Below, one piece after another: positions 12,183-63,434 of a stretch of DNA of 64,000 bases. Every line of letters begins with the position of its first letter. The first letter of the stretch is position 1. A program made the translations under genes and the position numbers. Under the pieces are notes generated by a model. The model made no database searches. It was given only the letters and a program-made list of their open reading frames with translations, and was not told the DNA's origin. The DNA is from a virus: IMG/VR virus record IMGVR_UViG_3300020051_000004; one strand, given 5' to 3'.

Positions 12183-12217
12183 TTGACAAAGAAGGTTAAC
12201 AGAGATAAATTTGTTGC
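12183..12217 (+). promoter_or_regulatory. sigma70-type leaderless promoter
   Basis: TTGACA-17-TAAATT-6nt-ATG(12218). Confidence 0.75.
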
Positions 12218-13674
12218 ATGATTAAATTACTCAAAAAACTCCTACAGCTAGCGCCAAAAGAAAATTTAGATGCGCCGCCAAAAATGAGGGTTCGGCCATT
12301 CACAAAAACCTCCGACCCATATTATCTTCCAGAGTATTTCTACAAAGGGAAGTGGGTTCCATTCACCAACAACTGGATGCACTTTGACAACTTGCGACTC
12401 TGGGAAAATAGGAGAAAAAACATCTTCGCCGATTTTGAAGAGGCCGTAAGTTTTTGCAAACAATGGAAAACCTTGCGAGAAATTTTAGAAAACCGCGCCG
12501 CCTTAGACAAAGAATTTGAAGAATCTAAACAAAACTTCCTAAAAATAATTAACAACAAGCAAAAAACATGGGAGAGTAACTAATGAGCACAAAGAAAGCA
12601 ATAAAAACGGCCAAACTTCTCTGCAAACAAGACGCCGAAAAACATTTAGCCACTTTAAATGGAGAATGGGAGGCTGAATTTCAAGATTTCATCTTTAGCG
12701 ACACTTTTATTTGGACAATTTTGTCAAAATGCCAGAGAGTCACCGTTAAAAAGTGGTCTGAGAGTTGTTTTTGCTCAAAAATGGGAAGATTCTACTCAAC
12801 GGGGAAAACCGTCAAATCCTCAATTAAAAACCTACAAAAAATCATCAAAGAAGAACTAACCAGAATCCGCGCAGAATTTGTTGAGCCGTTTCCTAGATTT
12901 TAACATGAACCTATCCCAATTCGCCATCGGAAAAGTCTGCCTTGACGAAGAAGAAATTGAAATCTTAGAAACAACATGATTCCATACGACCCCAATGACT
13001 GGCCAAAAGCTGGCGACAAAGTAAAATTTTTAAGCGCCGAAGGTAGGTTTTTTCCGAACTTCACGAACATTATTGATTTTGCCAAAAAGAATCTAACCTG
13101 TGGCCGCGAATATACTGTTAAAAAATGCGAGGTGTATAGTTCATGGTGCGGAATCTGGCTTGAAGAGGTTGAGTTTGATCACCCTTTTCATTTAACAATG
13201 TTCGAGTGGATAGCTAATCAGAAATAACATGACAACAGAATTCGCCGCCGACAAATTAACCGTCTCTACAACCAAATCAACCATCGGTTTAACTCGCTGT
13301 GAGAAAGATTATATGATTTCGTTTTTCCCCGTTTCTTTCAGAGGGCATAGGTTGATTGACGAGTCTGGTATTAACGTTGTTTACGATTTGTTTTTGACAA
13401 ACGAGCAAGTAGAGGCTATTGTTGATGAGTATAACAAGAAAAACGGCATTTTCTCAGAATAAACCATGTCAACTACTAAACAGCACTCCTTCGCAGGTCA
13501 AACCTTGAATCCTGACGTGTACTTATTCTTTTGTGACAAGAATAATCCTAAAAATTGGGGCGAAGACTCTCACCTTAAGAATGGCAATTATTTTTGTAAC
13601 TGTATTAAATGCGGTGAAAATTTCATTGGCTACAAGAGAAGAGTTTATTGCAAAATTTGCCATTACGAAAAACC

Positions 13675-13998
13675 ATGATCAAAATCAAAACAATCATCCA
13701 CTACGGCGGCGTTTGCCCCTTTCAGCTTGACGCATTAACAAATGATGATAGGATGATCTATGGTCGATACAGGCACGGCTGGATAGAAGTGAGAATTGGC
13801 GCAAAAGATGACGCATCAGAAGACGCGGCTGTTAGCGGCGAATCTATTTTCAGAGAAAAAATCGGAGAAAATTTTGACGGATACATCGACATTGAACAAT
13901 TCAAACTTGAGACTGAAGATTTGATTGATTGGAGCGAAGCTTTTGATCAACACGCTCTCGAAAGAGAGGCTTTGCTAAATAAACTGAGGAGTAAATAG
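13675..13998 (+). CDS. phage hypothetical protein (CPxQ...YxRYRxG type)
   Basis: Motif VCPFQLDALTNDDRMIYGRYRHG; start moved to the ATGA overlap. Confidence 0.55.
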   Translation: MIKIKTIIHYGGVCPFQLDALTNDDRMIYGRYRHGWIEVRIGAKDDASEDAAVSGESIFREKIGENFDGYIDIEQFKLETEDLIDWSEAFDQHALEREALLNKLRSK

Positions 13999-14001
13999 AC
14001 C

Positions 14002-14661
14002 ATGCTTAACCCCCTCAACCAACTCATAGGCAAGAAACTACACTACACGTTGGTTTATTATAGAAATCCAAAATCGGCGAGTTCGAGCATTTTCTCCGCT
14101 CTCGGCCCAAGAAATTTATTTTGGCGCGAAAAAAAGTTTTTAGATTCGGCCCTTTCTAAGGACAAGAAATACGGTGGAGTATTTGATCCATCTCACGTTC
14201 TTCCATCAGAAGCTCGAAAATTGTTTGGCCGTGGGTTGGATAATTTCTTTTCTTTTACTTGCGTGAGAAATCCTTTCTGCAAGCAAGTCTCACAATGGAG
14301 TTTTTCGCGGGCAAAAAATTGGGGCCGCTTGTATGGATTGCCTGATGATGGAAGTTTTAGCGAATGGTGCGAAGCTCTTTGGAAAAAACGGAAAGACCAA
14401 ACATTTTGGCCCGTTATACCTCAAACAAAATTCTCTCACGAATTTCCACTAAACTGCATTCTCAAATTTGAGACACTAAATAAAGATTGGTCTTCTATGT
14501 TAAAAGACAATCAAATCAGTGGACTACCAGAACATCTCCCGCACGAAAATAAGTCAAAACACCAGCCTTGGCAGGAAATAATCACAGAAAAAGACGCCGA
14601 CATTATTCGCGAAATTTTCGCTTGTGATTTCTCGGCTCTTGAGTATAGTTTAAAAATATGA
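14002..14661 (+). CDS. sulfotransferase (Sulfotransfer_2-like)
   Basis: 5'-PSB-like RNPKSASSS, 3'-PB-like FTCVRNPFCKQVSQW, KFETL..DW, LPHEN, IF..DF..LEY. Confidence 0.78.
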   Translation: MLNPLNQLIGKKLHYTLVYYRNPKSASSSIFSALGPRNLFWREKKFLDSALSKDKKYGGVFDPSHVLPSEARKLFGRGLDNFFSFTCVRNPFCKQVSQWSFSRAKNWGRLYGLPDDGSFSEWCEALWKKRKDQTFWPVIPQTKFSHEFPLNCILKFETLNKDWSSMLKDNQISGLPEHLPHENKSKHQPWQEIITEKDADIIREIFACDFSALEYSLKI

Positions 14662-15024
14662 CACTAACCTACAACAAAGACGGCAAACTAGAGTTTGAAT
14701 TGCACGACCTTCTTCCTGCTGTAAAGGCAGAAGACAAGGTTAAACTAATCGAAGACTTGTCTTGCGACGAAGCGATTATCCAGCACGTAGTTGATCAAAT
14801 TTTACACGGCTGGACAGAAAACTCTTATAGTGGGTCAACTGAGTGCGGTGCATCTGCAAATCCTCATTGCGCTCTAGACAAAGCGAGACGAGAAATCTCT
14901 AAACGCTCTAGCGAAATCGCCAAAGAGACAATCGAAAAACTAGAAAAAGCCCTGAAAGAGAAAACAGACGAATTGCGAAACCTGCGCGAAGAAAAGTTTT
15001 ACGGCAACTACAGAATGTAACAAC

Positions 15025-15594
15025 ATGATAACCCCACAAACCATCCAACGAGCCAAACAAAAGGCCGAAAAAATCAAAGAAGACCAAAGCGATGCGCCGA
15101 TTATTAATGTCGTACTATCTTTGGAACAAATCGAAGAAAAAGAACGCGCCGTTCTGGAAGAAATTGAGCGGCGCAAGCAAATTCAAGAGGTTGAAGTTGC
15201 TAAAGTAATCGAGGTAAAAGATAAACTTGTTGACGAGGAAGGATTTTTAGCCGCCAAACAATTAGTTGATGAAAAAGCCCCTTTTTTAAAGCTGAATGGA
15301 GCTTTTGGTAAGATTTCGTCTGGAATCTGGAAGGATCTGTCTGGTGTTCCAAGAAAAATTGTTGAGATGTGGTTGAAACTAGAGCCGTACGAGAAACTTG
15401 TTTCTATCGTTTGGTTAATTACTTTTCCTTTCTGCTTTTATTATGCGGTATTTGTTTTAAATCTTTGGGGTGGAAATTCGGCAATTCGGAAAACAGTGCT
15501 TTTCGTATATTTAATTATAAATAGTTTTGTTTTTTCTTATACGTTTACCTTCTTTTTAAAGCTTCTCTTTGATAGATACGTTGATAAAAAATAA
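15025..15594 (+). CDS. membrane protein (coiled-coil N-terminus, two C-terminal TM helices)
   Basis: Hydrophobic segments LVSIVWLITFPFCFYYAVFVL and TVLFVYLIINSFVFSYTFTFFL. Confidence 0.6.
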   Translation: MITPQTIQRAKQKAEKIKEDQSDAPIINVVLSLEQIEEKERAVLEEIERRKQIQEVEVAKVIEVKDKLVDEEGFLAAKQLVDEKAPFLKLNGAFGKISSGIWKDLSGVPRKIVEMWLKLEPYEKLVSIVWLITFPFCFYYAVFVLNLWGGNSAIRKTVLFVYLIINSFVFSYTFTFFLKLLFDRYVDKK

Positions 15595-17673: not shown

Positions 17674-17707
17674 TTGACATTGACGAGATTCCACTGTAGT
17701 ATAAAAC
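17674..17707 (+). promoter_or_regulatory. sigma70-type leaderless promoter
   Basis: TTGACA-17-TAGTAT-5nt-ATG(17708). Confidence 0.75.
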
Positions 17708-18121
17708 ATGAACATTTTCCAATTCATGGCCGAAAGCCCGTTGTTGACCTTTTTTCTCTTTTGGATGACAACCAATATGTCATTTAAGGCGTGGAATCGT
17801 TTAATGAGAGTAATTAATATCCGAAAACATGGCTGGCCACCTCCCCACTGCGACGCAGATGGAGATTTTAAACCAGAACAAGAAAAAGACGACGAAAATT
17901 AATCCAACCCCTAAAACAATATGAAATCCCTCCTCAACAACTGGTCCTACCAAGAAACCCGCCTCGCAAACGCCCGCAAACAAATGTGTGATCGCGGCGC
18001 AACAAGTGATGCCGCAATCGCCGAAACGCTCATTGACCAAAAGAAAAACAACCGCCGATACGATGGTATTATGAGTAAAGGTCAATATCGAAGGACTGTT
18101 AGTTCCTTTGTGTGAACAATT

Positions 18122-18534: not shown

Positions 18535-18832
18535 ACAACCACCAATTCGCCGACAATATGAGTACATGGACACACATCGAAGGAGAACACACCTCCAAAA
18601 AAGCCTCAATCCGCAAAATCATCGAATTCGTTCTCGACGGAGAAGATGTAGTTGCCGAATACGACCATAACGAATTCTGGGTTCGTTTTGAGCATGGCGG
18701 GGAAAAAACCGCTAACAGCATTAGCGAATCATTGATTACTTTAAGAGTTGCGACAAAAACGCGCGTTTAAATTTAACGGCAACAATTGAATATTCAGTTT
18801 GACAGTTGGCAGGCTATCCACTATATTCACAC

Positions 18833-19741
18833 ATGACTAAATACAAAGCAATCATCCTACCCGAAAAAGTTTTTATCGCAGACTCCCTTAATAAGGATTG
18901 GTGCGCAGTAGCCCTAGATAAAGATTTTCTTTTTGACGGAAGAAATGCACTACCAACTTTAAAGAAGGGCTGGTACGAATTGCCAAATCTTCCAAAGAAA
19001 GTGGAGAAATTAATTGCGCCGCCCAAAATTATTTCTTTTTATAAGCTCAAAGAAGGATTCGTTGCAACAGAAAAACTTCCAGAACGCCTTCCAGAATACT
19101 TCTTCAATTGGGACGGCGATGAAGAAGAATACAACAATGCCGAAATCAAAGGCTTATATGATCCAGTTTACGAACAAAAGGAGCCATACTTTGAAAACGT
19201 AGAATTTGAGATTGAAACAATTGCTCACAAAGGCTCAAGCTGGAAATTCCTCGCGGCCCCAAAAAATGTTCAACATCTCTTAGTTGACGAAATCATTAAG
19301 TTGCCAGAACTTTTGCAAGATGAGCATTGCTTCTTATCTTCGGAAGAAAGTTATTGCCGCATCAGAGACTTTGTAAAGTTAAATATTAATCCACGGGTTG
19401 CTTATGTGAGTTCTGATTATAATTTTCATTTTGTAGTTTCTAAAAAGATCCCTCTACACGAAAAAGAAAAATATCGAAAGTGCTTAAACATTTTCGCTAA
19501 GCGGCCAAAGTATGTCGATGACTACCGAGTTAACCGCAGCATTGAAGTTTATAACTTAACTCCAAACGAAAAAAACAACCGAGAATACCAAAACTCTCAG
19601 TTAGCTCCAAAATTTGAAGGCGCGAACTACGAAGACTTGGAGAACAATATCAATAACTACTTGGCAGAACTTATTGAAAAAATCAACGAACCAGTGCAAG
19701 ATTGTCCGCATTGCAAAGGTAGAGGAGTTGTCGCACCATGA
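18833..19741 (+). CDS. hypothetical protein with C-terminal CxxCxGxG zinc-ribbon motif
   Basis: Start reassigned to ATG 18833 behind TTGACA(18799)-17-TATATT; ends DCPHCKGRGV. Confidence 0.65.
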   Translation: MTKYKAIILPEKVFIADSLNKDWCAVALDKDFLFDGRNALPTLKKGWYELPNLPKKVEKLIAPPKIISFYKLKEGFVATEKLPERLPEYFFNWDGDEEEYNNAEIKGLYDPVYEQKEPYFENVEFEIETIAHKGSSWKFLAAPKNVQHLLVDEIIKLPELLQDEHCFLSSEESYCRIRDFVKLNINPRVAYVSSDYNFHFVVSKKIPLHEKEKYRKCLNIFAKRPKYVDDYRVNRSIEVYNLTPNEKNNREYQNSQLAPKFEGANYEDLENNINNYLAELIEKINEPVQDCPHCKGRGVVAP

Positions 19742-20371: not shown

Positions 20372-20641
20372 ATGATCCTCCTAACAACCATCAACTTACT
20401 CCTACAACTCGCTGTTCAATTTTTGCGCCTCAAAATCAAAACGTCAACCTATGACATTTTGGAAAAATTTGACGAGCGCCTTGACAAATTGGACCAACAG
20501 CGCGAAAAACTCCGCAAATCAACCAACACAGCCGACCAACAACGCGCCGATAAAATCATGGACGAAATCTTGGAAGAACAGAAGAAAAAGAAATTGTTCC
20601 TAGAAGATCAAAAAGTAATTGACGGGTCGAAAGAAAGCTGA
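20372..20641 (+). CDS. putative inner-membrane spanin-like protein
   Basis: N-terminal hydrophobic helix (MILLTTINLLLQLAVQFL) followed by a charged coiled coil. Confidence 0.4.
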   Translation: MILLTTINLLLQLAVQFLRLKIKTSTYDILEKFDERLDKLDQQREKLRKSTNTADQQRADKIMDEILEEQKKKKLFLEDQKVIDGSKES

Positions 20642-20653
20642 TATAGTAAAACC
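20619..20653 (+). promoter_or_regulatory. sigma70-type leaderless promoter
   Basis: TTGACG-17-TATAGT-6nt-ATG(20654). Confidence 0.75.
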
Positions 20654-21112
20654 ATGAAAGTTCAAGCAAAAGCCCGCGTTCAAGCGACAATCGAAGTAGA
20701 AGCATCTGCATGGGGCGGCGATTGTTCAATCAGTCAACTCTATAAACAAGCAGGAGAAAGCGCCATCAACCAAATCAAACATGCTTGCCAGTTATCCAAG
20801 CAAAAATTCACAATAGTTGGCGAACCTAAAGTAATCGGAATCATCACAGAACAACATTAAAAACATGGGACTTTACACACAATTCAAATTCCTAGACCAA
20901 AAAGACCCAGAATATCTCACGGCCAAAAACGGTTCTCCAGAAGAGATGGAGGAGTGGGAGGATGAATATGGGCCGCTTGATTTGCGACCAGGAAAACCAG
21001 TTGACGGCGAAGAATCCTGTATTGAAGAAACCGAAGAAGAATACGGCGGCTGGCTAATTGACTTGTCAAAGATTCCGAAGAAAGCAACACACCTACTCGT
21101 TTACCGATCCTA

Positions 21113-22071: not shown

Positions 22072-22965
22072 ATGAGCACTCTAGACACATCTTACCAACA
22101 AATCCTACGCGACATTCATCAATATGGCGAATGGGAAAACAATAGAACAGGAATCCGCGCCAAAATAATTCCATCCGCAATGATTACTCATGATATGAGT
22201 AGTGGATTTCCACTACTTACGATCAAGAGAACGCCATTTAAAACAATGGCCGTTGAACTTGAGGGTTTCATCAAAGGAATCACCTCTAAGAAATGGTTTC
22301 AAGAACGTGGATGTAAAATTTGGAACGAGTGGTGCAATCCTCAAAAAGTTCCTTATGGCAATGATAAATTGAGCAAAGCAAGAATGCTGTTAGAAGATGA
22401 TCTTGGATTAATTTACGGTAGCCAGTGGAGAGATTTTTGTTTCCCCGACAAAGATGGCATTTATACTGACTCGCATGGTAATTCTCCTAATGGAGTTGAT
22501 CAGTTGCAAATCATTGTTAATACGCTCAAAGAGAATCCACAGGATCGGCGAATGATTTGTTCCGCATGGAACCCTTTAGCCTTGGACCAAATGGCTCTTC
22601 CTCCTTGCCATGCTCTCTGGCAGGTTTCAGTGATCAATAACAAACTAAATCTCTGCTGGTTTCAGCGTAGCGTTGATACCCCCCTTGGGCTTGGAATAAA
22701 TATTGCATCTTATGGTCTTTTGCTTCACCTTTTGGCGCGGATTTATGGATTTAGAGAGGGCGTTCTTACTGGTTTCTTATCAAATGTTCATTTTTACGAA
22801 AATCAAATGGACGGCGTTGATGAAATTTTAGAGAGACATTCTACTTACAGCTTACCACAAGTTGAGACAGAAAAGCTTGATTCGATTTTTAATTGGTCGC
22901 ATTATCAAACAAAGTTGATTAATTACAATAGCCTTGATAAAATCAGTATGCCAGTTGCCGTTTAA
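22072..22965 (+). CDS. thyA: thymidylate synthase
   Basis: NRTG, FPLLT, LGLIYGSQWR, DRRMICSAWNP, MALPPCH, QRSVD, NIASY, HFYENQ. Confidence 0.96.
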   Translation: MSTLDTSYQQILRDIHQYGEWENNRTGIRAKIIPSAMITHDMSSGFPLLTIKRTPFKTMAVELEGFIKGITSKKWFQERGCKIWNEWCNPQKVPYGNDKLSKARMLLEDDLGLIYGSQWRDFCFPDKDGIYTDSHGNSPNGVDQLQIIVNTLKENPQDRRMICSAWNPLALDQMALPPCHALWQVSVINNKLNLCWFQRSVDTPLGLGINIASYGLLLHLLARIYGFREGVLTGFLSNVHFYENQMDGVDEILERHSTYSLPQVETEKLDSIFNWSHYQTKLINYNSLDKISMPVAV

Positions 22966-22966
22966 T

Positions 22967-31807: not shown

Positions 31808-31841
31808 ATTGACAAATTTGTAATTTCTATTATCATATACC

Positions 31842-52955: not shown

Positions 52956-53621
52956 ATGAACAGACTCGCCTTCTTCTTCCCTGCTAAAATCGTCTTTGCT
53001 GAATCCGCCATTGAGCTAACGCCACACGAAGGAAAACACCCTGTTTACCTTGGTCCAATCGGGCGCAAGTATTATTTCAAAACAGACAAGGGTAAAGTCG
53101 TTTTCGAGCGTATTGAAGACGATAAACGCCAAGTATTCTTGAAGGTGAAAGATTGTTTTTGTCCTTGCAATGTTTCTTTTATTGATAATATCCCGTCTAT
53201 GATTGAAACGATGGCCGACCGTATCGAGGCAAAGCTTCCAATCTGGGAAAAGGAGATTGAAAATCCCTTGGCCTACGAACAAAAGGCCGCTGAAACCCGC
53301 GCCAAAATTAATGCTGAACGCGAAGAGCAGGATAAAAGGATTGCGGCGCAAAAACTAGAGCGCGAACAAGCGGCGCAAAAAGATTACGAAGATTCTCTTG
53401 CGGTTTTTAAAGCTGGCATTCACATGATTGAATGGGGCCACTTCGAGCGAGCCTGTAAAGAAAACAATGTTAAGCTGCCAATCAAAACACTAGGCTTTGG
53501 CCGCGCAAACGTGGCTAAAATCGGCCAGACTGGCTACTCAGTGCATAGCAGTAGCCACAATTCACCCGTATTATGGGCAGCGATTCAAGAATTGTCGGAA
53601 AAATTACTTGTGGCGCAATAA
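52956..53621 (+). CDS. hypothetical protein (221 aa)
   Basis: ORF behind TTGACA(52922)-16-TAAATT. Confidence 0.7.
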   Translation: MNRLAFFFPAKIVFAESAIELTPHEGKHPVYLGPIGRKYYFKTDKGKVVFERIEDDKRQVFLKVKDCFCPCNVSFIDNIPSMIETMADRIEAKLPIWEKEIENPLAYEQKAAETRAKINAEREEQDKRIAAQKLEREQAAQKDYEDSLAVFKAGIHMIEWGHFERACKENNVKLPIKTLGFGRANVAKIGQTGYSVHSSSHNSPVLWAAIQELSEKLLVAQ

Positions 53622-53641
53622 ATTATCACTATATTACTAAC

Positions 53642-53923
53642 ATGACTCTAACACCTGATCAATTCGAGAGCTTCCAAGATTTAGCTTGGAACATTAACGG
53701 CGAAGTTTATGAAAATTATAGTGGCCGTCGTATGTACGGCAAAACCTGCTTAGGTATCACAGTCGAAAATCTAAACAAAGCGTTATTTAGCCTTGGCAGA
53801 TACACAGCAGAGCCGTTTGATGAAGATTTGGCAAGCGCCGTTGAAAGATTTGAAACTGACAACATGGACCGCAGTTACATTATTTATTTTCCAAAAATTC
53901 AGAAAGCAGTTGACGGCGAATAG
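53642..53923 (+). CDS. phage hypothetical protein (YSGRxMYG motif)
   Basis: YENYSGRRMYGKTCLGI...DNM...IIYFP; start reassigned to the promoter-proximal ATG. Confidence 0.65.
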   Translation: MTLTPDQFESFQDLAWNINGEVYENYSGRRMYGKTCLGITVENLNKALFSLGRYTAEPFDEDLASAVERFETDNMDRSYIIYFPKIQKAVDGE

Positions 53924-54623
53924 TTTTTGTGCTAAAATAACCCATGATTCTAAAAACCATCCATTATCGCGATCATGTTATCGAGCTAACCCCTAACTGG
54001 TGGACTTGTTTCATGATCAACCATGGAACTCTAAAAAGCGATACTCTACAGGGTATCAAGTCTAAAATTAGAGAATTGAGCGAAAAATAGTTGCGCCGCG
54101 AAATAATTTGCTAATATTTAATCATGAAATACTCAACAATAAACAAATTCTCTTTCGAGAAAGACGAATTGAAAGAATTTTCACCTATATCCCTTCTTCT
54201 TGCAAGCGAGCTTATCAGGGAGAATGGCGAATTGCCAATTTTTGAAAAAGGTAAAATTTACAAAATAACAATCGAAGAGGCGCTAAGTAGCGATAGTGAA
54301 ACTTAAAAACAAGGAAATTTTGAAATAAATAACTTGCGCCGCAAATAAATCTCTGTACAATTCTACCATGAAACTTAACCAATGCACCCTCGGTAAACTC
54401 GTCATCACAGAAGATAAGAAGGTTGGTCATATTGTCGGCCTTACTTATAATATTTCTCTTGACTTAACTGGTTATATGTCGGACCAAGAGAAGTTTGAAA
54501 GAACTATTCCCCTTGTGAGGTTCCCTGATGGAGAGCGCGGCATTCATTACTCGAATTTAAGTGAATTTAAATAATTTTGGCATTTAATCTTGACTGTCTC
54601 TAATAACCTGCTAATTTACCAAT

Positions 54624-55034
54624 ATGACTGACTACCAACAACAAGCTACCGACTTCCTCGCTAAACACAACATTGCCTTTTCCTTTAAACTGACAAACAC
54701 CAAAACGCCAGACTGGGAAAATAATGGCCAACAGAGAAATCACTTTGTCGCTACCCTTAAGCAAGGCAAAAAGAGAATGTCGTTTGATTATTTTGATTCA
54801 ATCAAGAATTTTGAAAGCGGCAAGACAGAAATCACCGCTTATGATGCCTTGACCATTTGTTCGTCCGAAATTAACTGCCCTGACTCGTTTGAAGATTTTT
54901 GTGGCGAATTTGGATACGATGAAGATTCGCGCAAGGCCGAAAAAACTTTTCGCGCCCTGAAAAAATCTTCAGATAAACTGAAAAAATTCTTTGACACTGA
55001 GGAAATCCGAGATGATCTTTCGGAAATTCAGTGA
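54624..55034 (+). CDS. phage hypothetical protein
   Basis: SFEDFCGEFGYDEDSRKAEK motif; own promoter at 54590. Confidence 0.65.
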   Translation: MTDYQQQATDFLAKHNIAFSFKLTNTKTPDWENNGQQRNHFVATLKQGKKRMSFDYFDSIKNFESGKTEITAYDALTICSSEINCPDSFEDFCGEFGYDEDSRKAEKTFRALKKSSDKLKKFFDTEEIRDDLSEIQ

Positions 55035-55177: not shown

Positions 55178-57851
55178 CTCCTTTTATCAAACGCCGAACG
55201 GCTCCTGAATAATATGAAAGACTCCCTAAGATTCGTTTACGAGAAAGTGGAAAACGGCTGGAAAAAAGTGTACGAAGCTCAGAGCTTCCAGAATGCTCTT
55301 TTCATGGCCAAACAAATGAAATTAATTGCGCCGAAGAAAGAATTTTGTGTGAATAGTTAGATTTTTTCTTGCGTTGGGCAAATAACGTGATACATTGATT
55401 TATAATTGTATGATGAACCGCAAAACTTGCAATCATTCCTAGAAACGTAAAAAAAATCAATTCTTCCGCAGTAATATGAAAAAATCCAAAGACGCACAAA
55501 GAATCATTGTCGCACTTTACTTGCGAAAAAGACGCAAGCGCGAACATCTGAGAATTATTCAGAGAGATGATTGCAGCTATCCAGATTACAAAAAATGGAA
55601 ACAAAATCCTGAACTCTGGCAAAAAATTCTTAGTGACTGTAGAACTACATTGGCAGAACGTCATAATACACTTCAGGTCGCTAGAAGAGCCTTGTATAAT
55701 ATTTGGGGTTGACAGGTTTTAGAGAGGTGATCCAATAACGCTTGACGGCGCAAAGAAATCTCTCTAATACTTGGGGCGCTTTCAATTGCCAAGTATGAAG
55801 GGCGCGGACTAGATGGATACGAAGAGCTAGAAAAACAAATCTCCGACTTGCAAAAGAAATTGCAGAAATAATTTGCGCCGCATTAAATTTTAATCTATAC
55901 TCTACTCATGAGCGCCGACAATGCAATTTACATTCGACCATTAAAAACTGGTGGCTATGCCGTCAAATGTATTTCTTCATTATATCCAGAATACGGAAAT
56001 GACGAGGGTATTGATGAAGAGTTTAAAGATGCGCCAGTTTTCGCCACATTAGATGAAGCTTGGGAGTACGAAGAAAAGATTCAACAAAAATATGAAGATT
56101 CTGGACGTTATATTGAGTATGACTCAGAAGTTTTGACTCGAAAAGATGGATTTTAGTTGACACGGCCAATTTAATAGCCTAATATCTACCCATGAACAAC
56201 GAATACACTCTTGAAGATTTCCGCAAGGTTGCCAAAGTCGGGCGAACAAAGAAAGCCAATGGTTTTCTCTCTGGTTCTAGACTAATCAGCGCCGTTGCTG
56301 TGCGTTGGAATAGCAAAGCAGGAAAGCGTGAACTGCATTACGATTTCAAAAAGGGCTGCGATTATGTCAAAGAATGCTTTGAAGAATTGCAAAAAAGGTG
56401 CATAATCCGCGATTGTTTGATGCCAGCGTAATTAATTAACGCCAAAAAACCAAAACACTTGACAATAATTAACTCTAATGTCATTCTATGAAATAAACCT
56501 TTCTAATTGCGATGGATGCAATGCGACAATTCACGTTTTTGAGAACGGCAAAATTGATCGTAGGGGAAATTCCTACAACAAAGTGAAGCGCCTAGCTAAA
56601 TTTTGCAAAGAATCAGAATATGATGAGGAAATGCCAGAATGGGCGAAAACTGCAATGCGAAAACTGGAAAAGTGAAGAAAATACTTGCTAAGTATTGGAT
56701 CAAATGATAGACTCCACGCATGAAAACATTCACAGTCCGCGATTTCTACCACTATTCGCAGCTTGACGGCGGAAAAACGTATTTTGATTTGCCAGTTGTT
56801 TTTGAGGGAGGATGGAATGCCGTTCACGATTTCTGTCAAAATAAAGGATATTCGTGGAAAAAAGATTCCTCAATTTTCGGCGGATATTATGTTGACAATG
56901 AGGGGAAATGCCTTATGATTGTGTAATGAAACTCCATACACTCAGACTAGGCGGTTGCGTTTCTAGGGCAGAAGCTCTTTACAAAATTAAAGCGTGGAAG
57001 AAAGCGGCCAAAAGCTTCACTATAATTTCCATAAGCCGTTATTGGTATGGTGTGCAAAATAAGCACTTGAACACTTTTCGTTTTGAGGTAGAGTACTACT
57101 CAAAGAAAAACGAAGGCCGCTATCAAATTCCACTTGACAAAGTTGGCGTTTTATGTGGAGCGAGTAGAAGAAAACACGGCGGAAACCTTGACAAGAGGGC
57201 AAAAATATGAAAGTCTTTCTTTTCCATTATAGTTACCATAAAGGCAAATGGTCAAGCCGTTCTAGCTGGCCCCCTAAGCGAATAATTGCAGAAGATTTAC
57301 AAGCCGCAAAAGAAATTTTCGGCAAAAAACGCCGTGGCGCAGGATTTAGACTTGACAAAATTGAAGATGTGACAGGTAAACCGCACAAAATACCAGAAAA
57401 AACGGTTTTTTAGCTTGCGGGCAAAAGTTTAATGTGATATATTCAAGTCTTATGTTTGATCCTGCTTTAACTCACCATTACCTTGTTCAAGAGGCTCGCC
57501 GCTCTGGTTCTGTCTTAACTTTTGAAGAAAAGGTTAGTCATTTAGTGCGAAAGTATGGAGTTTTGCGCTCTCTTGCCGCTTTGGCAGTGAATTATGCAGA
57601 AAATCCTTGATTAATTCGCTAAACAATTGTAGAGTTTAATTATGAATCGCCGCCTTAAAACCGCCAAACAGAAACTCTTTAAAGCTATGACTCTGATTGA
57701 ATCAGAGTCAACAAAAAGCTCTGGCGATAGAAAAAACGAGCTTTTCAATCAGGCGAGTGATATTCAGGAAATTATTTCGGCGATTGATAGAATTTTGATT
57801 TTGGACGAAAAATAACTTGCGCCGCCCATAATTCCAAACTATATTTAATCT

Positions 57852-58289
57852 ATGAACGCCAAACTTCTCAAACAAATCTCCGACAACCTCACTCCCCTTG
57901 ATACCTCAGACATGTATCGAACATTCTTGGAGGAATGCTATGGGGAAATTACACTCGGAAACTTAACATTTAGTGCCGCTCGCATCATTGAGGAACTTGA
58001 TCCTACGGCTTTTAGATGCGGCGAGGCTGATTACATTGATTCCTTGTCTTTGGTTGAAATTCAGGGGGATTATTATGAGCAAGATGCCGTAGAGCAGGAA
58101 AGGGATGGGTTGATCGAGGAACTGGAAAGTGAGCTTTCAGACTTAGAAGAGGGGCTTCTCGAAAATGAGAAAGACATTAAAAACGAAGTAATTTCAGAAG
58201 AAGCTGGCATGAGTGAATCTGAAAGATTACAGGCAGAAATTGACGCTTTGACCGCCGAGATTGAAGAAATCAAAGAATATTGTTTTTAA
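57852..58289 (+). CDS. highly acidic hypothetical protein (possible nucleic-acid mimic)
   Basis: LDPTAFRCG motif, extreme Glu/Asp excess; own TTGCGCCGC promoter at 57817. Confidence 0.6.
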   Translation: MNAKLLKQISDNLTPLDTSDMYRTFLEECYGEITLGNLTFSAARIIEELDPTAFRCGEADYIDSLSLVEIQGDYYEQDAVEQERDGLIEELESELSDLEEGLLENEKDIKNEVISEEAGMSESERLQAEIDALTAEIEEIKEYCF

Positions 58290-60391
58290 CTTGACGGTTT
58301 ATCAAATCGGCGACATATTAAACCATGAGCGAGCCATACCGATTCAAACAGTTCAAGCAAAATGCCAGAACTAAAATAAAAAATCATTCTTGGATCAAAA
58401 AGAAAGGGCCGAACTCTTTTATTGAATTTGACAGGAAAACTTTCGAGGCCGCAATTGATTCTCTCAAAAATAAGGTTGATCTTTATGCTTCTGGATTGGA
58501 TGAGATTGCGCCACATGAGACGCTTTTGATTCAAATTCTAGGTGAATATGGACTTTAACGCTTGACGTTTAGAAAAATCTAGCTTAAAATAAGTCATGGA
58601 CGAAGAAAGAATCGCAAAAATCATAGAAGAAACCTTAATGAACGCTGGCTATGGGAAAAGGGCTGCTAAAATGGCCGCTAGTCCCATCGCTACAGAGGTT
58701 TTTTATGTGGCTTACGAGCTTGGGAAGTTAGAAATGAAAAATAAACTTGGATTTCTAGATGCAGTCAGCGAATTAAAATAATTACAAATAATTGTTGCGG
58801 CTTTTTGGTTATCTGTTATATTGATTGCATGAAAATTAAACCTGCTCACTTCGACAAGATCAAAGAAATGATTGAAGCACTGCTTTCCAAACACGGAAGG
58901 GATCAAATTATTCTCAAATATGAGACGGGCGATTTCCCTCGTTCCGAAAAAGTGAAAGACTTGCAAACAAGGTTTAACTTTGATCTTTATCATTTTTCAG
59001 GAGCACTAGGAGCCGTTGCTAGCGAGGTATATGAGTATGCCAATGATGAACATATAGCTACGGCCTTAAAGAGAATCTGCCCGAAAGTGGAGAGAAAATT
59101 TTAATTGCAGTGAGCCTAGAAACAAGGCGATAGTCGAAGAATTGGAAAAAATTTAAATTATTACTTGCGGACTGCTAATTTTGATATACATTTAAACATG
59201 AAAACAAAAGACCTCCTTTTTAATCTAGGTGATAAATTCACAGAAATGGCCGAAATGCTTGAACAAGCGGCTGAATATCTGGCAGACTCTCCTAACAAAT
59301 GCGAGAGAGACCTATTTGAGAAAATTCACGCTTATCTTGAAAGTGAAAAATAATTTTCGCGCCGCAAAATTGTTCTTGACTTTTGGGTAAATTTCTTTAG
59401 ATTAACTGCATGAAAAAACACCGCACACCCTCAAAAATTTACTCTTTAGCGCTTTTTCGTAAAATTCAAGGAAAAACTGTAAGAATTTGCTCTGTCGAGA
59501 GCTGGTATTTTTCGACTGTAAAAAGAGACGCTGAAAGAAAAGCTAGCCGCTTAAATAGAGATAATGGATACATCACTAAGGATCAGTTGTCTTGCGACAT
59601 TGACAAATGGATTCAAGTCGAAACTCTTTAACCCGACAATTTTCTTTCGCCGCAAAATAAATTAGCGTTCTCCCCTAAGAAGACGCCGCTCATTAAAAGA
59701 GGAAAATTTTTAGGAGAGAGGTTCTTGAGAAAACTGGAATTCTAAGAAAAAAACCTAAACGAAAAACTGCAAATAACGTGCGCGAAAGGTTTTTAGGCGG
59801 TTTCTGTAAATAGCTGAGTTTCAGCACTTTAAAGCGCTTGCGTGCTTGCCTTTTAGCGCCTTTAAATAGTAGAAACATATAGAGTAATATAGAGAGAAGA
59901 TAAGAAGAGAACTGGCAATTGACTAATGCTTGTGAAATACAAGTGATTTACTAGACTTCTCATCCTAAAATAGCCTAAGATCATTACCAAATGTAATGAA
60001 CTCAAATAAACCGCTTGACTCTCTAATCTCCTGTGATATTGTGTCTTATGACGAAAATCGAAATCCTCATTTGTTCCCTTTTTGGCCTTGCGTTCGGCGC
60101 TCTATTGCTCGCTTGCTGTGCATAAAGCACTGACAATCAACAAACTAAAAAACCGCTTGACAAGCCTCTTACCCTAGACTAACTTACTCAATGATTAAAA
60201 CACTCTCAGCCCTTCGTATGTCTTTTTGGGAAGCTCATCCGCAATTCGCTAGCGATTTCCGCACTAAAAAGCGCCAAAATGATTATAAATGTGACATCCG
60301 CCTCTCATGGATTGACTACGTAAATTCCCTATCTCAAGATGGGATTATCAGCGAAAAGCTTGCAAATAATGCTACGCTATAAGCACGGAAA

Positions 60392-60874: not shown

Positions 60875-62072
60875 CTTTTTTAAGCTTTTCAGCTAATCAG
60901 GATATTTTCGGCTCTAAGACTTTCTTTTAGTCTTTTTCCTTGAACTCACTTGAGGGTCGTAACCCGTGGAACTCGGAAATTTTCTTAGTCAGATTGTCAG
61001 TTTTTTGCTTAGGGATTATTGTGCGTATCTAAGCTGCACTCACATAAATAGTTACACTTTCTGCTTGCACAAATAAATAGAGAGAGTAAATTGATTGCAT
61101 GAAATCAACAAGAAACCCCGCCGACTATATCAGTGAAAAAATTAACGACGATTTAACGCTGACTAATTGCGTTCGCTCTTATGTGGATAAAGTTACGGGC
61201 GAAACTAAGCCAAGCGGTGACTTTGGATGGTGGCTCTATGACGAGACTTTTGGTATGAATCTAGCTATGAAGGCTAAATCCAAAGAAGAAGCTTTGATCG
61301 AAGCGTTGCAGTATTATAACGAAAGATTCAAGCAAGAAAGAGATGCTTTGTTGTCACTACGGTACAAGGTTAATGGTTTTTTAAATCAATTCGCCAGTGA
61401 CGACGACGAATAATTTAAAATAAAACTTGCGGCGCATAAATAATCTGGTATCTTTCCTCATGAAATACTCAATCAAAGTTTTGAAAAACAACAAATTTCA
61501 GGCGTATCTCATTATTGGGAATCGCTCTGAATGGTGCAAGCGCACAGCGAAAAAACACGTTGTTTCCGCTATGAGTAAAGAACATTTTCAGGGATGTGAA
61601 TTTTGCCTCGAAGAAAATTAAAAACAAATATTTATTGCGCCGCTTCAAATAATGTGATAAACTGTCCTATGAACGAAACACTAAAAGAAAAAATGCTCGC
61701 CGCTTATCTTGATCGGGTAAATAATTTCATTACCCTAGAAAAGTTTGCAGAGCATTATGGAATTTCCGAAAGTTTGGCAAATGCGATGATTAACGAGATG
61801 GCGGAATATAACGAATTTCTTGCCAGCATCGAAAAGGCGAAAAAACTTCGCGCCGCAAAATAAATAACTTGACAACAAACAACCACTCGCCTACTGTATC
61901 ACATGACAAAGAAACACTTCATTGCAGCCGCCAAAGCCATCTCAGCACTTGCTGACCAAGGGAAAATTTCAGAAGCAAATGCTGCCGCTAACGTCATCAT
62001 TATCATGAATGATAATCCAGCATTCGACAAGGGAAAATTCCTTAAAGCCTGCAATATTTACTAAATAATTTC

Positions 62073-62156
62073 CCTACTCTGGCGTAATAGGTAGCCGCAT
62101 CAGACTTAAAATCTGATACTAGAAATAGTGTGCCAGTTCGAGTCTGGCGAGTAGGA
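62073..62156 (+). tRNA. tRNA-Leu(TAA)
   Basis: Full cloverleaf: CCTACTC/GAGTAGG, anticodon arm TCAGA-CTTAAAA-TCTGA, long variable arm, GCCAG-TTCGAGT-CTGGC, discriminator A; CCA not encoded. Confidence 0.95.
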
Positions 62157-62168
62157 CTTTCCCCTAAT

Positions 62169-62242
62169 GTTCCTGTAACTCAATAGGATAGAGTATCGTT
62201 TTTCTAAAGCGAAAGTTCTAGGTTCGAGCCCTAGCAGGAATG
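62169..62242 (+). tRNA. tRNA-Arg(TCT)
   Basis: GTTCCTG/CAGGAAT, D arm ACTC/GAGT, anticodon arm TCGTT-TTTCTAA-AGCGA, CTAGG-TTCGAGC-CCTAG. Confidence 0.92.
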
Positions 62243-62575
62243 CTCCTCTAAGAAAAATCCCTAGTCGAGGAAAAAAAGACAAATAATACTTGCGCCGCCC
62301 AAAATAACCTGCTACTTTAAACCATGAATAAATTTAAAAACGGCAACTTCATTGAATCGCTCGAATCTGGCACGGTTAAAGCTGGAATCTATGGGTACGT
62401 GATTGACACTTTCCGCGATGGAAATTTCTGGAAATATGAAATTTACTGGATAGGCGGAGGAAAAACAATCGCCCGAGAAAAAGATTTAAAGCTTGCCGAG
62501 TAATACATTTACCTATAGAAAAACGAGTCTCTTACCTAGGTGTCTTTTGCACTCTATACACTGAAAAGTTTTTAG

Positions 62576-62608
62576 CTCCTAGCCTCAAAAGGGTTAGGGG
62601 ATTTTTTT
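62576..62608 (+). terminator. intrinsic terminator
   Basis: CTCCTAGCCT-CAAAA-GGGTTAGGGG-ATTTTTTT. Confidence 0.7.
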
Positions 62609-63434
62609 ACGCCGCAAATTTTTAAACTAGAGGTCCATGATAACTTTACAGAGAAAACTAATGGGCGCAACAAAAAAATAAAAATAATTTCGGCCGTAAA
62701 TAATTCTTGATTCTTCAGTTCTCCCCTGTATTGTACAAATATGAGAAACCAAAAACTTTTCGCGCTTCAATTGCTGGACTTCCATGGTGGTCAATTTTCA
62801 CCTTTGTACGCTGTGGGCTCCTGTATGCTTTCGGACTCCGAGAAAGGCATCAAATATCAGCCATCTAATCATCATGGCCATTCTTGCGATGAGGAATTTT
62901 GCGGCGCTGTAAAGAATGCAATTTTTGAATTGCGTGGACTCAGGAAAAATGCCAACTTCCCTGAATGCGTGAAAGCTAGCGATGAAAAGAGGGCCGAAAA
63001 GCTGGCGGCACGCTTGGAGAAGTTTCTGAAATAAGAAATAATTCTTGATTTAACTTTTTCACCTGCTATCTTTTCAGTCTTATGAGTCAAATATCCGCCC
63101 CTCAATGCATCGCCTTGTCAGTTAAATTTCTTGGCCCGTCTAATCATCGCGGCTCGCGAGTTAAAGCCAGTTGTAAACGGTTAAGCCTGAATAAAACCTT
63201 TTCTTACAAATATGAGGAAAATGGAGCCGTTGAACAAATAGAGGCGGCCCTCCTTAGAGCTGGAATCCCTTGTCAGAGCTTGCTTGATATGGGGGATCAT
63301 TACATCCTGGTCATCGACTGGCAGTACCGCGAGGCATTGACCGCTTTTATGAAGTAGTGTTTTGGCTTAGGGAAAGCATTTTGCGGCTTCTCATTTTTGA
63401 GAGAAACTATTTTCAACTTTTTCACTCTCCTTCA

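What the first reader, a model, noticed from the sequence alone, without database searches (positions are those of the whole stretch)
12183..63082. About 55 one-gene leaderless cassettes: a sigma70 promoter sits directly on each ATG
Seen: by hand I count about 55 sites with the geometry TTG(ACA/ACG/ACT/CGC/CGG)-N16-17-TAnnnT-N5-6(-9)-ATG. Examples start at 12183, 17674, 18799, 20619, 30884, 31809, 38306, 42094, 42465, 43665, 44650, 44953, 45706, 46161, 48482, 48823, 49418, 50345, 51703, 52137, 52389, 52671, 52922, 53910, 54334, 55873, 57817, 58562, 59376, 60157, 61869 and 62290. Density rises to nearly one per gene after ~42 kb, the -35 box usually abuts or overlaps the previous stop codon, and no Shine-Dalgarno motifs are visible. 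Established: this spacing puts +1 at or next to the A of ATG, giving leaderless mRNA that 70S ribosomes initiate directly. Inference: a whole early programme built on leaderless translation, which could let the phage bypass or disable canonical initiation. The pattern also corrects ORF starts (18833, 39861, 53642, 58829, 59198) and reveals short genes missing from the track (40423, 45427, 53944, 57452, 57642, 60048, 61903, 62324).
Basis: partly seen in the sequence, partly recalled or inferred. Interest (0 to 1): 0.8.

Follow-up and report, generated by a model that had tools for sequence, protein, structure and literature searches.

The report
Leaderless promoter-per-gene cassettes in phage
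An uncultured large tailed phage places a textbook host-type promoter directly against the ATG of 54 genes, so these messages should begin at the start codon with no ribosome-binding leader; the layout is real, far beyond chance and kept in close relatives, but no RNA mapping has yet confirmed it.

Summary
A promoter search that ignores the ATG (TTGNNN, 16-18 nt, TANNNT) finds an ATG exactly 5-6 nt after the -10 box at 56 plus-strand sites. The minus strand has 2 and dinucleotide shuffles give 2.1 +/- 1.4. Fifty-four sites open ORFs of at least 25 aa, and all 53 that open ORFs of at least 40 aa use ATG.

Such promoters sit on 68% of plus-strand genes in 42-63 kb and 13% in 10-42 kb. Three close relatives show the same peak. 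In a 148-kb, ~91% complete relative, all 66 plus-strand sites lie in one 40-kb sector downstream of the tail genes.

Most remaining genes also lack Shine-Dalgarno motifs and are stop-start coupled, and this holds genome-wide. No stem-loops or terminators separate the cassettes. Gene content turns over fast, but shared genes keep the promoter on the ATG.

Best reading: an early, host-RNA-polymerase-read sector of leaderless one-gene cassettes, a leaderless, terminator-less counterpart of T4-type PeSL cassettes. The idea that the phage disables canonical initiation is unsupported. Transcription starts are unmapped and the host is unknown. This scan has noted similar arrays in other uncultured phages.

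The parts
12183..12583 (+). promoter-on-ATG cassette, ATG 12218, 121 aa
   Evidence: spacer 17, d 6
14622..15020 (+). weak promoter-on-ATG site, ATG 14658, 120 aa
   Evidence: spacer 18, d 6, poor -35
17674..17902 (+). cassette, ATG 17708, 64 aa
   Evidence: spacer 17, d 5
18799..19741 (+). cassette, ATG 18833, 302 aa, Gad1 anti-Gabija protein
   Evidence: spacer 17, d 5; Pfam Gad1 1e-69; same geometry in G001
20619..20860 (+). cassette, ATG 20654, 68 aa
   Evidence: spacer 17, d 6
22934..23449 (+). small phage sigma factor gene (no promoter of its own, inside an operon)
   Evidence: Pfam Sigma70_r2 1e-7 plus HTH; orthologue in G001
30884..31807 (+). cassette, ATG 30917, 296 aa, UvdE endonuclease
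   Evidence: spacer 16, d 5; Pfam UvdE; geometry kept in G001
31809..32342 (+). cassette, ATG 31842, 166 aa
   Evidence: spacer 16, d 5
36383..36929 (+). cassette, ATG 36417, 170 aa coiled-coil protein
   Evidence: spacer 17, d 5; geometry kept in G001
38306..38650 (+). cassette, ATG 38339, 103 aa
   Evidence: spacer 16, d 5, both hexamers consensus
39828..40049 (+). cassette, ATG 39861, 62 aa
   Evidence: spacer 16, d 5; no homologue found
40388..40584 (+). cassette, ATG 40423, 53 aa
   Evidence: spacer 17, d 6; conserved in G001 and L002
42094..42463 (+). cassette, ATG 42128, 111 aa
   Evidence: spacer 17, d 5
42465..42741 (+). cassette, ATG 42499, 80 aa
   Evidence: spacer 16, d 6; geometry kept in L001 and G001
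43665..44670 (+). cassette, ATG 43699, 323 aa RuvB-like AAA+ ATPase
   Evidence: spacer 16, d 6; Pfam; geometry kept in L001 and L003
44650..44956 (+). cassette, ATG 44684, 90 aa
   Evidence: spacer 17, d 5
44953..45194 (+). cassette, ATG 44988, 68 aa
   Evidence: spacer 17, d 6
45394..45549 (+). cassette, ATG 45427, 40 aa
   Evidence: spacer 16, d 5
45706..46159 (+). cassette (TTGCGCCGC class), ATG 45740, 139 aa HD-domain protein
   Evidence: spacer 16, d 6; Pfam HD_4
46161..46494 (+). cassette (TTGCGCCGC class), ATG 46195, 99 aa
   Evidence: spacer 17, d 5
47011..47437 (+). cassette, ATG 47045, 130 aa
   Evidence: spacer 16, d 6
47405..47798 (+). weak site, ATG 47439, 119 aa
   Evidence: spacer 17, d 5; orthologue in G001 lacks the promoter
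48482..48818 (+). cassette (TTGCGCCGC class), ATG 48516, 100 aa
   Evidence: spacer 17, d 5
48823..49300 (+). cassette, ATG 48857, 147 aa
   Evidence: spacer 17, d 5; geometry kept in L002
49418..49665 (+). cassette, ATG 49453, 70 aa
   Evidence: spacer 17, d 6
50043..50316 (+). cassette, ATG 50077, 79 aa
   Evidence: spacer 16, d 6; absent from a wastewater relative, with the joint inside the flanking promoters
50345..50655 (+). cassette, ATG 50380, 91 aa
   Evidence: spacer 17, d 6; geometry kept in G001 and L002
51338..51701 (+). cassette, ATG 51372, 109 aa
   Evidence: spacer 16, d 6
51703..52123 (+). cassette, ATG 51737, 128 aa
   Evidence: spacer 16, d 6
52137..52392 (+). cassette (TTGCGCCGC class), ATG 52171, 73 aa
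   Evidence: spacer 16, d 6
52389..52674 (+). cassette, ATG 52423, 83 aa; previous stop lies inside the -35 box
   Evidence: spacer 16, d 6
52671..52920 (+). cassette, ATG 52705, 71 aa; previous stop lies inside the -35 box
   Evidence: spacer 16, d 6
52922..53621 (+). cassette, ATG 52956, 221 aa
   Evidence: spacer 16, d 6
53608..53923 (+). cassette, ATG 53642, 93 aa
   Evidence: spacer 16, d 6
53910..54090 (+). cassette, ATG 53944, 48 aa
   Evidence: spacer 17, d 5
54091..54306 (+). cassette with 15-nt spacer (TTGCGCCGC class), ATG 54124, 60 aa
   Evidence: spacer 15, d 6
54334..54574 (+). cassette (TTGCGCCGC class), ATG 54368, 68 aa
   Evidence: spacer 16, d 6; skipped in a wastewater relative
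54590..55034 (+). cassette, ATG 54624, 136 aa
   Evidence: spacer 16, d 6; geometry kept in G001 and L001
55873..56156 (+). cassette (TTGCGCCGC class), ATG 55908, 82 aa
   Evidence: spacer 17, d 6
56157..56431 (+). cassette, ATG 56192, 79 aa
   Evidence: spacer 17, d 6
56685..56926 (+). cassette, ATG 56720, 68 aa
   Evidence: spacer 17, d 6
56892..57210 (+). cassette, ATG 56926, 94 aa
   Evidence: spacer 16, d 6
57607..57815 (+). cassette, ATG 57642, 57 aa
   Evidence: spacer 17, d 6
57817..58289 (+). cassette (TTGCGCCGC class), ATG 57852, 145 aa
   Evidence: spacer 17, d 6; geometry kept in G001
58562..58781 (+). cassette, ATG 58596, 61 aa
   Evidence: spacer 17, d 5
58795..59104 (+). cassette, ATG 58829, 91 aa
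   Evidence: spacer 16, d 6; homology to G001 starts at this ATG, geometry kept
59165..59353 (+). cassette, ATG 59198, 51 aa
   Evidence: spacer 16, d 5
59376..59631 (+). cassette, ATG 59410, 73 aa
   Evidence: spacer 16, d 6
60015..60125 (+). promoter with a 25-aa ORF, ATG 60048 (doubtful gene)
   Evidence: spacer 16, d 5; no other support
60157..60382 (+). cassette, ATG 60191, 63 aa
   Evidence: spacer 17, d 5; geometry kept in G001
61065..61413 (+). cassette, ATG 61099, 104 aa
   Evidence: spacer 16, d 6
61427..61621 (+). cassette, ATG 61460, 53 aa
   Evidence: spacer 16, d 5
61635..61863 (+). cassette (TTGCGCCGC class), ATG 61669, 64 aa
   Evidence: spacer 17, d 5
61869..62064 (+). cassette, ATG 61903, 53 aa
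   Evidence: spacer 17, d 5; conserved in G001
62290..62503 (+). cassette (TTGCGCCGC class), ATG 62324, 59 aa
   Evidence: spacer 17, d 5
62707..63034 (+). cassette, ATG 62741, 97 aa
   Evidence: spacer 16, d 6
33626..34613 (+). promoter 8 nt before ATG 33663 (predicted 1-2 nt leader), 316 aa
   Evidence: spacer 17, d 8
43350..43663 (+). promoter 9 nt before ATG 43388 (predicted 2-3 nt leader), 91 aa
   Evidence: spacer 17, d 9
57415..57610 (+). promoter 8 nt before ATG 57452, 52 aa
   Evidence: spacer 17, d 8
63045..63357 (+). promoter 9 nt before ATG 63082, 91 aa
   Evidence: spacer 16, d 9

Best explanation
The plus-strand block from about 10 kb to 63 kb is the early, host-RNA-polymerase-transcribed sector of a large uncultured siphovirus-like phage. 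In it, 54 genes each carry their own sigma70-type promoter (TTGACA-like box, 16-17 nt, TATAAT-like box). The A of the ATG lies 5-6 nt after the -10 box, which is where RNA polymerase normally starts, so each promoter should make an mRNA that begins with AUG. Shown here: the geometry, its statistics, its restriction to one strand and one genome sector, and its conservation. Inferred: the start site, and translation by direct binding of ribosomes (70S, per the leaderless-mRNA literature) to the 5'-terminal AUG, helped by an A/C-rich, G-poor, unstructured 5' coding end. Because only a 5'-terminal AUG is read this way, and no terminator or Shine-Dalgarno separates the genes, every gene that needs independent strong expression needs its own promoter. 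This explains the one-promoter-per-gene layout. Genes without a promoter are expressed by tight stop-start coupling. The compact 34-35 bp promoter also marks the module boundary at which related phages differ in gene content, so it probably doubles as a junction for cassette gain, loss and replacement.
For: Peak at d = 5-6: 56 sites against 2.06 +/- 1.44 in shuffles and 2 on the minus strand; 34 against 0.20 for the TTGAC subclass. The unconstrained hexamer positions give the consensus (-35 positions 4-6: A 37, C 33, A 21 of 54; -10 position 4: A 36 of 54). Spacers are 16 (27 sites) or 17 (26 sites). Position -1 is C or T in 49 of 54 and G in 0. ATG at 53 of 53 sites that open ORFs of at least 40 aa, with no GTG or TTG. 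Domain profiles begin at residues 5-7 of proteins read from the promoter-adjacent ATG (Gad1, UvdE, RuvB_N, HD_4). The same peak is present in relatives L001-L003. In the 148-kb relative all 66 plus-strand sites lie at 55-95 kb. Twelve of 16 shared genes keep a promoter on the ATG although the promoter sequence differs. Codons 2-7 are 73% A+C and 8.6% G, and the first 40 nt fold at -1.7 against -5.3 kcal/mol for internal windows (p = 2e-7). No hairpins in the promoter segments and no terminators at gene ends. SD motifs are at background, and 60 of 83 promoter-less genes start within -23 to +11 nt of the previous stop. Homology blocks with the relative begin at ATGs and end at stops. Contig joints in related wastewater strains fall in or at the promoters. 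Framework: leaderless mRNAs bind 70S ribosomes through a 5'-terminal AUG (PMC9031893).
Against: No transcription start has been mapped. The one RNA library that holds the phage is available only as contigs, and several of these bridge promoter/ATG junctions, so they neither confirm nor refute the predicted starts. The host is unknown, so it is not known whether its ribosomes translate leaderless mRNA well. With d = 5 the usual start position would be the T or G of the ATG unless the polymerase picks the A one base earlier. The pyrimidine at -1 followed by A at +1 argues that it does, but this is inference. Read-through transcripts could also be translated internally, so leaderless mRNAs may not be the only productive form. 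The joints were laid at 90% likeness in metagenomes, where some may be artefacts.
Confidence: 0.78

Rival explanations
1. The promoters are real, but the productive templates are mostly long read-through transcripts. The AU-rich promoter sequence, once transcribed, serves as an unstructured, SD-independent ribosome landing site in front of each internal AUG. Leaderless transcripts would then be a minor by-product.
For: No terminators between cassettes. RNA-library contigs run across promoter/ATG junctions. Promoter-less genes have the same G-poor, unstructured start regions and also lack SD, so the host or phage clearly supports SD-independent internal initiation or coupling.
Against: This does not explain why the distance from the -10 box to the ATG is fixed at 5-6 nt, why position -1 is a pyrimidine, or why the start codon is always ATG at these sites when promoter-less genes also use GTG and TTG. 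A landing-site role would tolerate variable spacing.
Confidence: 0.25
2. The repeated promoter units are primarily recombination modules, like PeSLs of T4-type phages, that shuffle small accessory genes. The fixed geometry then reflects common descent of one mobile unit rather than selection for leaderless starts.
For: Only 16 of 61 promoter-adjacent ORFs have homologues in relatives whose tail protein is 73% identical. Homology blocks equal ORFs. Joints in related strains fall in promoters. The promoters share a spacer signature (GC-rich block followed by an A/T-rich tract). PeSL precedent (PMC2839356).
Against: Orthologous genes keep the geometry while spacer, discriminator and even d (5 or 6) change, which indicates selection on function and not mere copying. 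This reading is compatible with the best explanation rather than an alternative to it.
Confidence: 0.35
3. The boxes are read by one of the phage's own sigma factors, not by the host's primary sigma, so the sector is a middle class rather than an early class.
For: The phage and its relative encode small sigma70-family proteins. A subclass of promoters has a non-consensus TTGCGC -35 box with a conserved extension.
Against: The consensus is the housekeeping TTGACA/TATAAT with 16-17 nt spacing. One sigma gene lies inside the sector and must itself be transcribed first. Both promoter subclasses share the same -10 box and spacing.
Confidence: 0.07
4. Chance or compositional artefact of an AT-rich genome.
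For: TANNNT and TTG are common words in 40% GC DNA; 152 loose promoter hits exist on the plus strand.
Against: Observed 56 against 2.06 +/- 1.44 in shuffles, 2 on the opposite strand, a sharp two-bin peak, sector restriction in a whole genome, and no peak in three more distant relatives.
Confidence: 0.01

Closest known systems
PeSLs (promoter-early stem-loops) of T4-type phages RB49 and phi1 (Arbiol et al. 2010, PMC2839356)
   Same: Small regulatory cassettes between small, mostly ORFan genes in hyperplastic regions. The upstream stop codon sits in an AT-rich stretch just before a strong sigma70-type promoter. Related phages differ by insertion, deletion or replacement of genes at these cassettes (here).
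   Different: PeSLs contain a stem-loop terminator/attenuator and end with a Shine-Dalgarno plus start codon. Here no stem-loop is predicted (0 of 54 with z below -2), no terminators are found, there is no SD, and the ATG is at +1. The phage has lambda/T5-type tail genes and is not a T4-type myovirus.
Leaderless middle/late transcripts of Thermus phage phiYS40 (Sevostyanova et al. 2007, as summarised in PMC3594737)
   Same: A large phage that makes most transcripts of a temporal class without a leader and relies on the host apparatus to translate them.
   Different: There the leaderless class is middle/late and the starts were mapped experimentally. Infection is reported to raise IF2 and lower IF3. 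Here the class is read by consensus -35/-10 promoters in a presumptive early sector, nothing is mapped, and the host is unknown. The primary paper is not held, so details rest on the review.
Leaderless gene architecture of Deinococcus-Thermus and Actinobacteria (PMC4007540, PMC12340547, PMC4633059)
   Same: A -10 box directly next to the ORF, so that the TSS coincides with the start codon. In D. deserti 47% of mRNAs start exactly at the initiation codon (abstract shown).
   Different: Those are cellular genomes, and the papers emphasise the -10 region. Here every site also has a clear -35 box, the DNA is 40% GC, and AUG is used exclusively (that study's starts include GUG).
Lambda cI mRNA from PRM (single leaderless phage gene; cited in PMC9031893)
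   Same: A sigma70 promoter whose start is the A of the AUG. From memory, its -10 box is followed by 6 nt and then ATG, the same d = 6 geometry.
   Different: That is one regulatory gene, not 54 genes or two-thirds of a 21-kb stretch. The PRM spacing is recalled and was not checked here.

Membership tests
sigma70-type (-35/-10) bacterial promoter | -35 hexamer close to TTGACA | tested here: met
   Only TTG was required. The free positions 4-6 give A 37, C 33 and A 21 of 54; mean 4.7 of 6 matches.
sigma70-type (-35/-10) bacterial promoter | -10 hexamer close to TATAAT, 17 +/- 1 nt downstream of the -35 box | tested here: met
   Spacer 16 (27 sites), 17 (26) or 18 (1). Mean 4.3 of 6 matches. 14 of 54 also have TG at -15/-14.
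sigma70-type (-35/-10) bacterial promoter | Drives transcription by the host holoenzyme | not testable with these tools
   Needs in vitro transcription or reporters; the host is unknown.
Leaderless mRNA genes | Transcription start at, or within a few nt of, the start codon | not testable with these tools
   Predicted from d = 5-6 and pyrimidine at -1 / A at +1. Only contigs of an RNA library were available.
Leaderless mRNA genes | No Shine-Dalgarno or other leader signal | tested here: met
   The whole upstream space is promoter. SD motifs are at background even among the other genes.
Leaderless mRNA genes | 5'-terminal AUG as start codon | tested here: met
   ATG at 53 of 53 sites that open ORFs of at least 40 aa.
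PeSL cassettes of T4-type phages | sigma70-like early promoter between small genes of a hyperplastic region | tested here: met
PeSL cassettes of T4-type phages | Stem-loop acting as terminator/attenuator within the cassette | tested here: not met
   Mean folding z-score +0.64, none below -2. No terminator-like sites at gene ends.
PeSL cassettes of T4-type phages | Shine-Dalgarno and start codon at the 3' end of the cassette | tested here: not met
   The ATG follows the -10 box by 5-6 nt, leaving no room for an SD.
PeSL cassettes of T4-type phages | Recombination between cassettes shuffles genes among relatives | tested here: inconclusive
   Homology blocks equal ORFs, and joints in related strains fall in promoters. 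However, the joints come from metagenome contigs laid at 90% likeness.
phiYS40-type leaderless programme | Phage alters the initiation-factor balance (IF2 up, IF3 down) to favour leaderless mRNAs | not testable with these tools
   No IF3 homologue in the 91%-complete relative. Host factor levels cannot be examined.

The most novel reading that the evidence does not exclude
This phage clade expresses essentially its whole proteome without Shine-Dalgarno pairing: 5'-terminal AUGs behind consensus sigma70 promoters in the early sector, and stop-start coupling elsewhere. If its host is an ordinary SD-using bacterium (weak hints point to Pseudomonadota), one of the many ORFan early proteins must shift host ribosomes towards leaderless mRNAs. 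That would be a new translational take-over mechanism, and the promoter cassettes would be its dedicated delivery format.
Probability: 0.12. Interest if true: 0.85.

Novelty: new variant of a known kind. Interest (0 to 1): 0.6.

Why it matters
Leaderless translation is usually treated as a trait of particular cellular lineages or of single phage genes. Here it appears to be the organising principle of a 50-kb phage sector: one consensus promoter per gene, no leader, no terminator and no ribosome-binding site, in a genome that hardly uses Shine-Dalgarno sites at all. Practical consequences are that standard gene callers mis-set starts and miss small genes in such phages, and that the promoter geometry gives base-exact start codons. 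The cassettes form a very compact (34-35 bp) natural expression unit. The promoter-bounded modules also suggest how accessory genes such as the anti-Gabija Gad1 gene are exchanged. If the host proves to depend on SD pairing, the phage would point to an unknown way of redirecting ribosomes.

Tried and rejected
1. Megablast of two 10-kb stretches against 50,697 phage records found no match, and no whole genome is held for the window.

2. Host identification failed. A genome-contig scan with the tail J protein found no relative. A scan with the relative's RNR found only scattered MAG contigs of unrelated phyla at 39-69% identity. The protein atlas gives only a weak Pseudomonadota lean for the RNR. 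The terminase-region ORF matches only helicases of Enterococcus phages at about 24%. Earlier notes on this genome carry no host.

3. RNA evidence is uninformative. X1 (salt-marsh metatranscriptome) holds contigs identical to the window, but contigs cannot show 5' ends and several bridge promoter/ATG junctions. DNA carry-over cannot be excluded, and uncovered bins are not evidence.

4. Stem-loops and terminators in the cassettes: none.

5. Translation-modifying genes in the 91%-complete relative: IF3_C, PemK/MazF, bS21 and S1 were all absent. The search for a T7-like RNA polymerase found nothing, but its control was silent too, so it is uninformative.

6. Three more distant relatives (34-38% identity on the AAA+ gene) show no d = 5-6 peak in the stretches fetched. 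The architecture is not shown beyond the close clade.

7. The late motif GTGTAA mentioned in earlier notes shows only a weak excess of ATG 8-9 nt downstream in the relative. I did not pursue it.

8. The primary phiYS40 paper is not held.

Full report
**Observation**

I scanned for TTGNNN, 16-18 nt, TANNNT without reference to any ATG, to avoid circularity. The plus strand has 152 such hits. The distance from the end of the -10 hexamer to an ATG shows a two-bin spike: 25 hits at 5 nt and 31 at 6 nt, against 0-4 in most neighbouring bins (8 at 9 nt). The minus strand has 0 and 2.

The full pattern occurs 56 times on the plus strand and 2 times on the minus strand. Two hundred dinucleotide-preserving shuffles give 2.06 +/- 1.44, with a maximum of 9. 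The search tool's own shuffles give 0.20 expected for the TTGAC subclass, against 34 observed, all on the plus strand. Fifty-four sites open ORFs of at least 25 aa.

**Anatomy**

- The hexamer positions that the search left free converge on the sigma70 consensus. At -35 positions 4-6, A, C and A lead with 37, 33 and 21 of 54.
- Spacers are 16 or 17 nt in 53 of 54 sites, and 14 sites add a TG at -15/-14.
- The base before the ATG is C (36) or T (13) and never G. The next base after ATG is A in 46 of 54. A pyrimidine at -1 and a purine at +1 is the known start-site preference of bacterial RNA polymerase (my background knowledge).
- Every site that opens an ORF of at least 40 aa uses ATG: 53 of 53, with no GTG or TTG. 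Promoter-less genes in my promoter-blind gene map do use GTG and TTG.
- Pfam profiles begin at residues 5-7 of the proteins read from the promoter-adjacent ATG (Gad1, UvdE, RuvB_N, HD_4). These ATGs are therefore the true starts.
- In 35 of 54 sites an upstream open frame ends within 15 nt before to 7 nt after the start of the -35 box. In 7 of these the stop overlaps the hexamer.
- The promoter segments have no folding potential: mean z +0.64, none below -2. No terminator-like site lies at a gene end in 42-62 kb.
- Many spacers share a GC-rich block right after the -35 box, followed by an A/T-rich tract. Ten sites begin with the 9-mer TTGCGCCGC.

**Genome context**

The window holds lambda/T5-type tail-tip genes on the minus strand (0.8-10.2 kb), followed by an uninterrupted plus-strand block. 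It has no near-identical record among phages. Three IMG/VR contigs are close relatives, at 71-82% aa identity on the AAA+ gene. All three show the same 5-6 nt spike on the gene strand only.

One relative is a 148,420-bp contig rated 91% complete, which I fetched whole. It has 66 plus-strand sites that open ORFs. All lie between 55 and 95 kb, directly downstream of the tail genes as in the window, with up to 18 per 5 kb and none elsewhere on that strand. The rest of that genome carries replication and nucleotide-metabolism genes, then a terminase-to-tape-measure module. The promoters therefore define one discrete compartment.

In the window, promoter density is 13% of plus-strand genes in 10.2-42 kb and 68% in 42-63.1 kb. 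The proximal part holds larger genes: thymidylate synthase, a radical-SAM enzyme, UvdE, and a small sigma factor at 22934-23449. The distal part is mostly small ORFans. One cassette gene (18833-19741) is a clear Gad1 anti-Gabija protein (E = 1e-69). Host-type promoters, an anti-defence gene and a phage sigma factor for later classes together fit an early sector. Timing itself is inferred.

**Conservation and turnover**

Only 16 of 61 promoter-adjacent ORFs have a homologue in the relatives, although the tail J protein is 73% identical. Of those 16, 12 keep a sigma70 promoter on the aligned ATG in at least one relative. Their spacers and discriminators differ, and d switches between 5 and 6. 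This indicates selection on the geometry rather than simple copying.

Nucleotide homology blocks begin within a few bases of ATGs and end at stops. Contigs of related wastewater strains differ from the window by skips whose ends fall in or at promoters. Examples are 50060 to 50368 (one cassette), 54318 to 54575 (one cassette), and 55907 to 57852, which runs from the base before one ATG to another ATG. These joints were laid at 90% likeness in metagenomes and are suggestive only.

Three more distant relatives lack the spike in the stretches I fetched.

**Translation signals**

Among 83 promoter-less plus-strand genes, 11 (13%) have an SD-like 4-mer at -17 to -5, against 8.9% at arbitrary ATGs. 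Sixty of them start within -23 to +11 nt of the previous stop, most often with a 4-nt ATGA overlap. In the whole relative genome, SD-like motifs are at background in every sector, 23 of 255 genes.

Codons 2-7 are 73% A+C and 8.6% G, against 21% G in gene interiors. The first 40 nt of the predicted leaderless mRNAs are nearly unstructured: -1.7 against -5.3 kcal/mol, p = 2e-7. Promoter-less genes show the same start-region signature. SD-independence is thus a property of the whole phage and not of the early genes alone.

**RNA data**

A salt-marsh metatranscriptome library holds contigs identical to the window over most of 42-62 kb. It is held only as contigs, and several run across promoter/ATG junctions. 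This is compatible with read-through or with DNA carry-over, and it says nothing about 5' ends.

**Mechanism (inference)**

Host RNA polymerase with its primary sigma binds each promoter and starts at the A of the ATG. Ribosomes then bind the 5'-terminal AUG directly, the 70S route described for leaderless mRNAs (PMC9031893). A 5'-terminal AUG exists only once per transcript, and there are no SD sites or terminators between the genes. Each gene that needs strong independent expression therefore needs its own promoter, and the others ride on stop-start coupling. The 34-35 bp promoter also marks the module boundary at which relatives differ.

**Comparison with known systems**

- The closest described system is the PeSL cassette of T4-type phages. 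It shares the stop codon in an AT-rich stretch, a strong sigma70 promoter, small ORFan genes and recombination between cassettes. PeSLs, however, contain a stem-loop terminator and an SD before the start codon (PMC2839356). Both features were tested here and are absent.
- Thermus phage phiYS40 makes most middle/late transcripts leaderless (review PMC3594737).
- Deinococcus and actinobacterial genomes place the -10 box next to ORFs.
- In contrast, dRNA-seq of phage phiKZ found no leaderless transcript (PMC8244752).
- I found no paper in the held library that describes a phage array of consensus -35/-10 promoters fused to dozens of ATGs.
- This scan's own earlier notes report similar arrays in other uncultured phages. 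Those notes are unverified leads and not evidence.

I found nothing to support the idea that the phage bypasses or disables canonical initiation. No IF3, bS21, S1 or MazF homologue is present in the near-complete relative, and the late genes lack SD as well.

**Limits**

The host is unknown. No transcription start is mapped, and early timing is inferred.

Noticed in passing
window, whole; e.g. 3302, 16850, 19014, 24450, 47351, 49989 (+) and 53378, 53351, 52871, 44497, 32613, 30711, 18002, 15176, 1846 (-): The 9-mer TTGCGCCGC occurs 16 times on the plus strand and 9 times on the minus strand of 64 kb, where base composition predicts about 0.1 per strand. Ten plus-strand copies start promoter-on-ATG sites; the rest lie inside ORFs on either strand or between genes. 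Related GC-rich words head the 8-mer list, and TTGCGSCGCAA is palindromic. Unexplained.
   Followed up: partly
window 1-64000: CCGG is completely absent (0 copies), while GGCC (177), GCGC (214) and CGCG (158) are abundant. This looks like avoidance of a CCGG-specific restriction system.
   Followed up: partly
window 18833-19741 (+): Full-length Gad1 (Gabija anti-defence 1) homologue, Pfam E = 1e-69, expressed from one of the promoter-on-ATG cassettes and conserved at 66% identity in the 148-kb relative.
   Followed up: partly
window 22934-23449 (+); G001 58971-59165 and 106757-106972: Small sigma70-family proteins (region 2 plus a C-terminal HTH). One lies inside the early sector and a second just upstream of the terminase module of the relative. 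They are probably sigma factors for later promoter classes.
   Followed up: partly
window 45740-46159 (+): A cassette gene encodes an HD_4/HD-domain protein, the family that includes (p)ppGpp hydrolase domains. A review lists (p)ppGpp as activating leaderless translation (PMC9031893), so a link is conceivable but untested.
   Followed up: no
window 50832-50921 (+): ARAGORN calls a tRNA-like gene with a 4-base anticodon loop reading (agta). Ordinary tRNA-Leu(taa) and tRNA-Arg(tct) lie at 62073-62243.
   Followed up: no
G001 109407-112556 (L011:9407-12556): A 1049-aa ORF combines terminase large-subunit matches with a helicase-like and an endonuclease-like middle part. It may be an intein or a fusion.
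   Followed up: no
window 19738, 25045, 25904, 26320, 40584 (+): A handful of genes do carry strong SD motifs (GGAGG or AGGAG) at the proper distance. The host ribosome can presumably use SD pairing, and the phage simply rarely does.
   Followed up: partly
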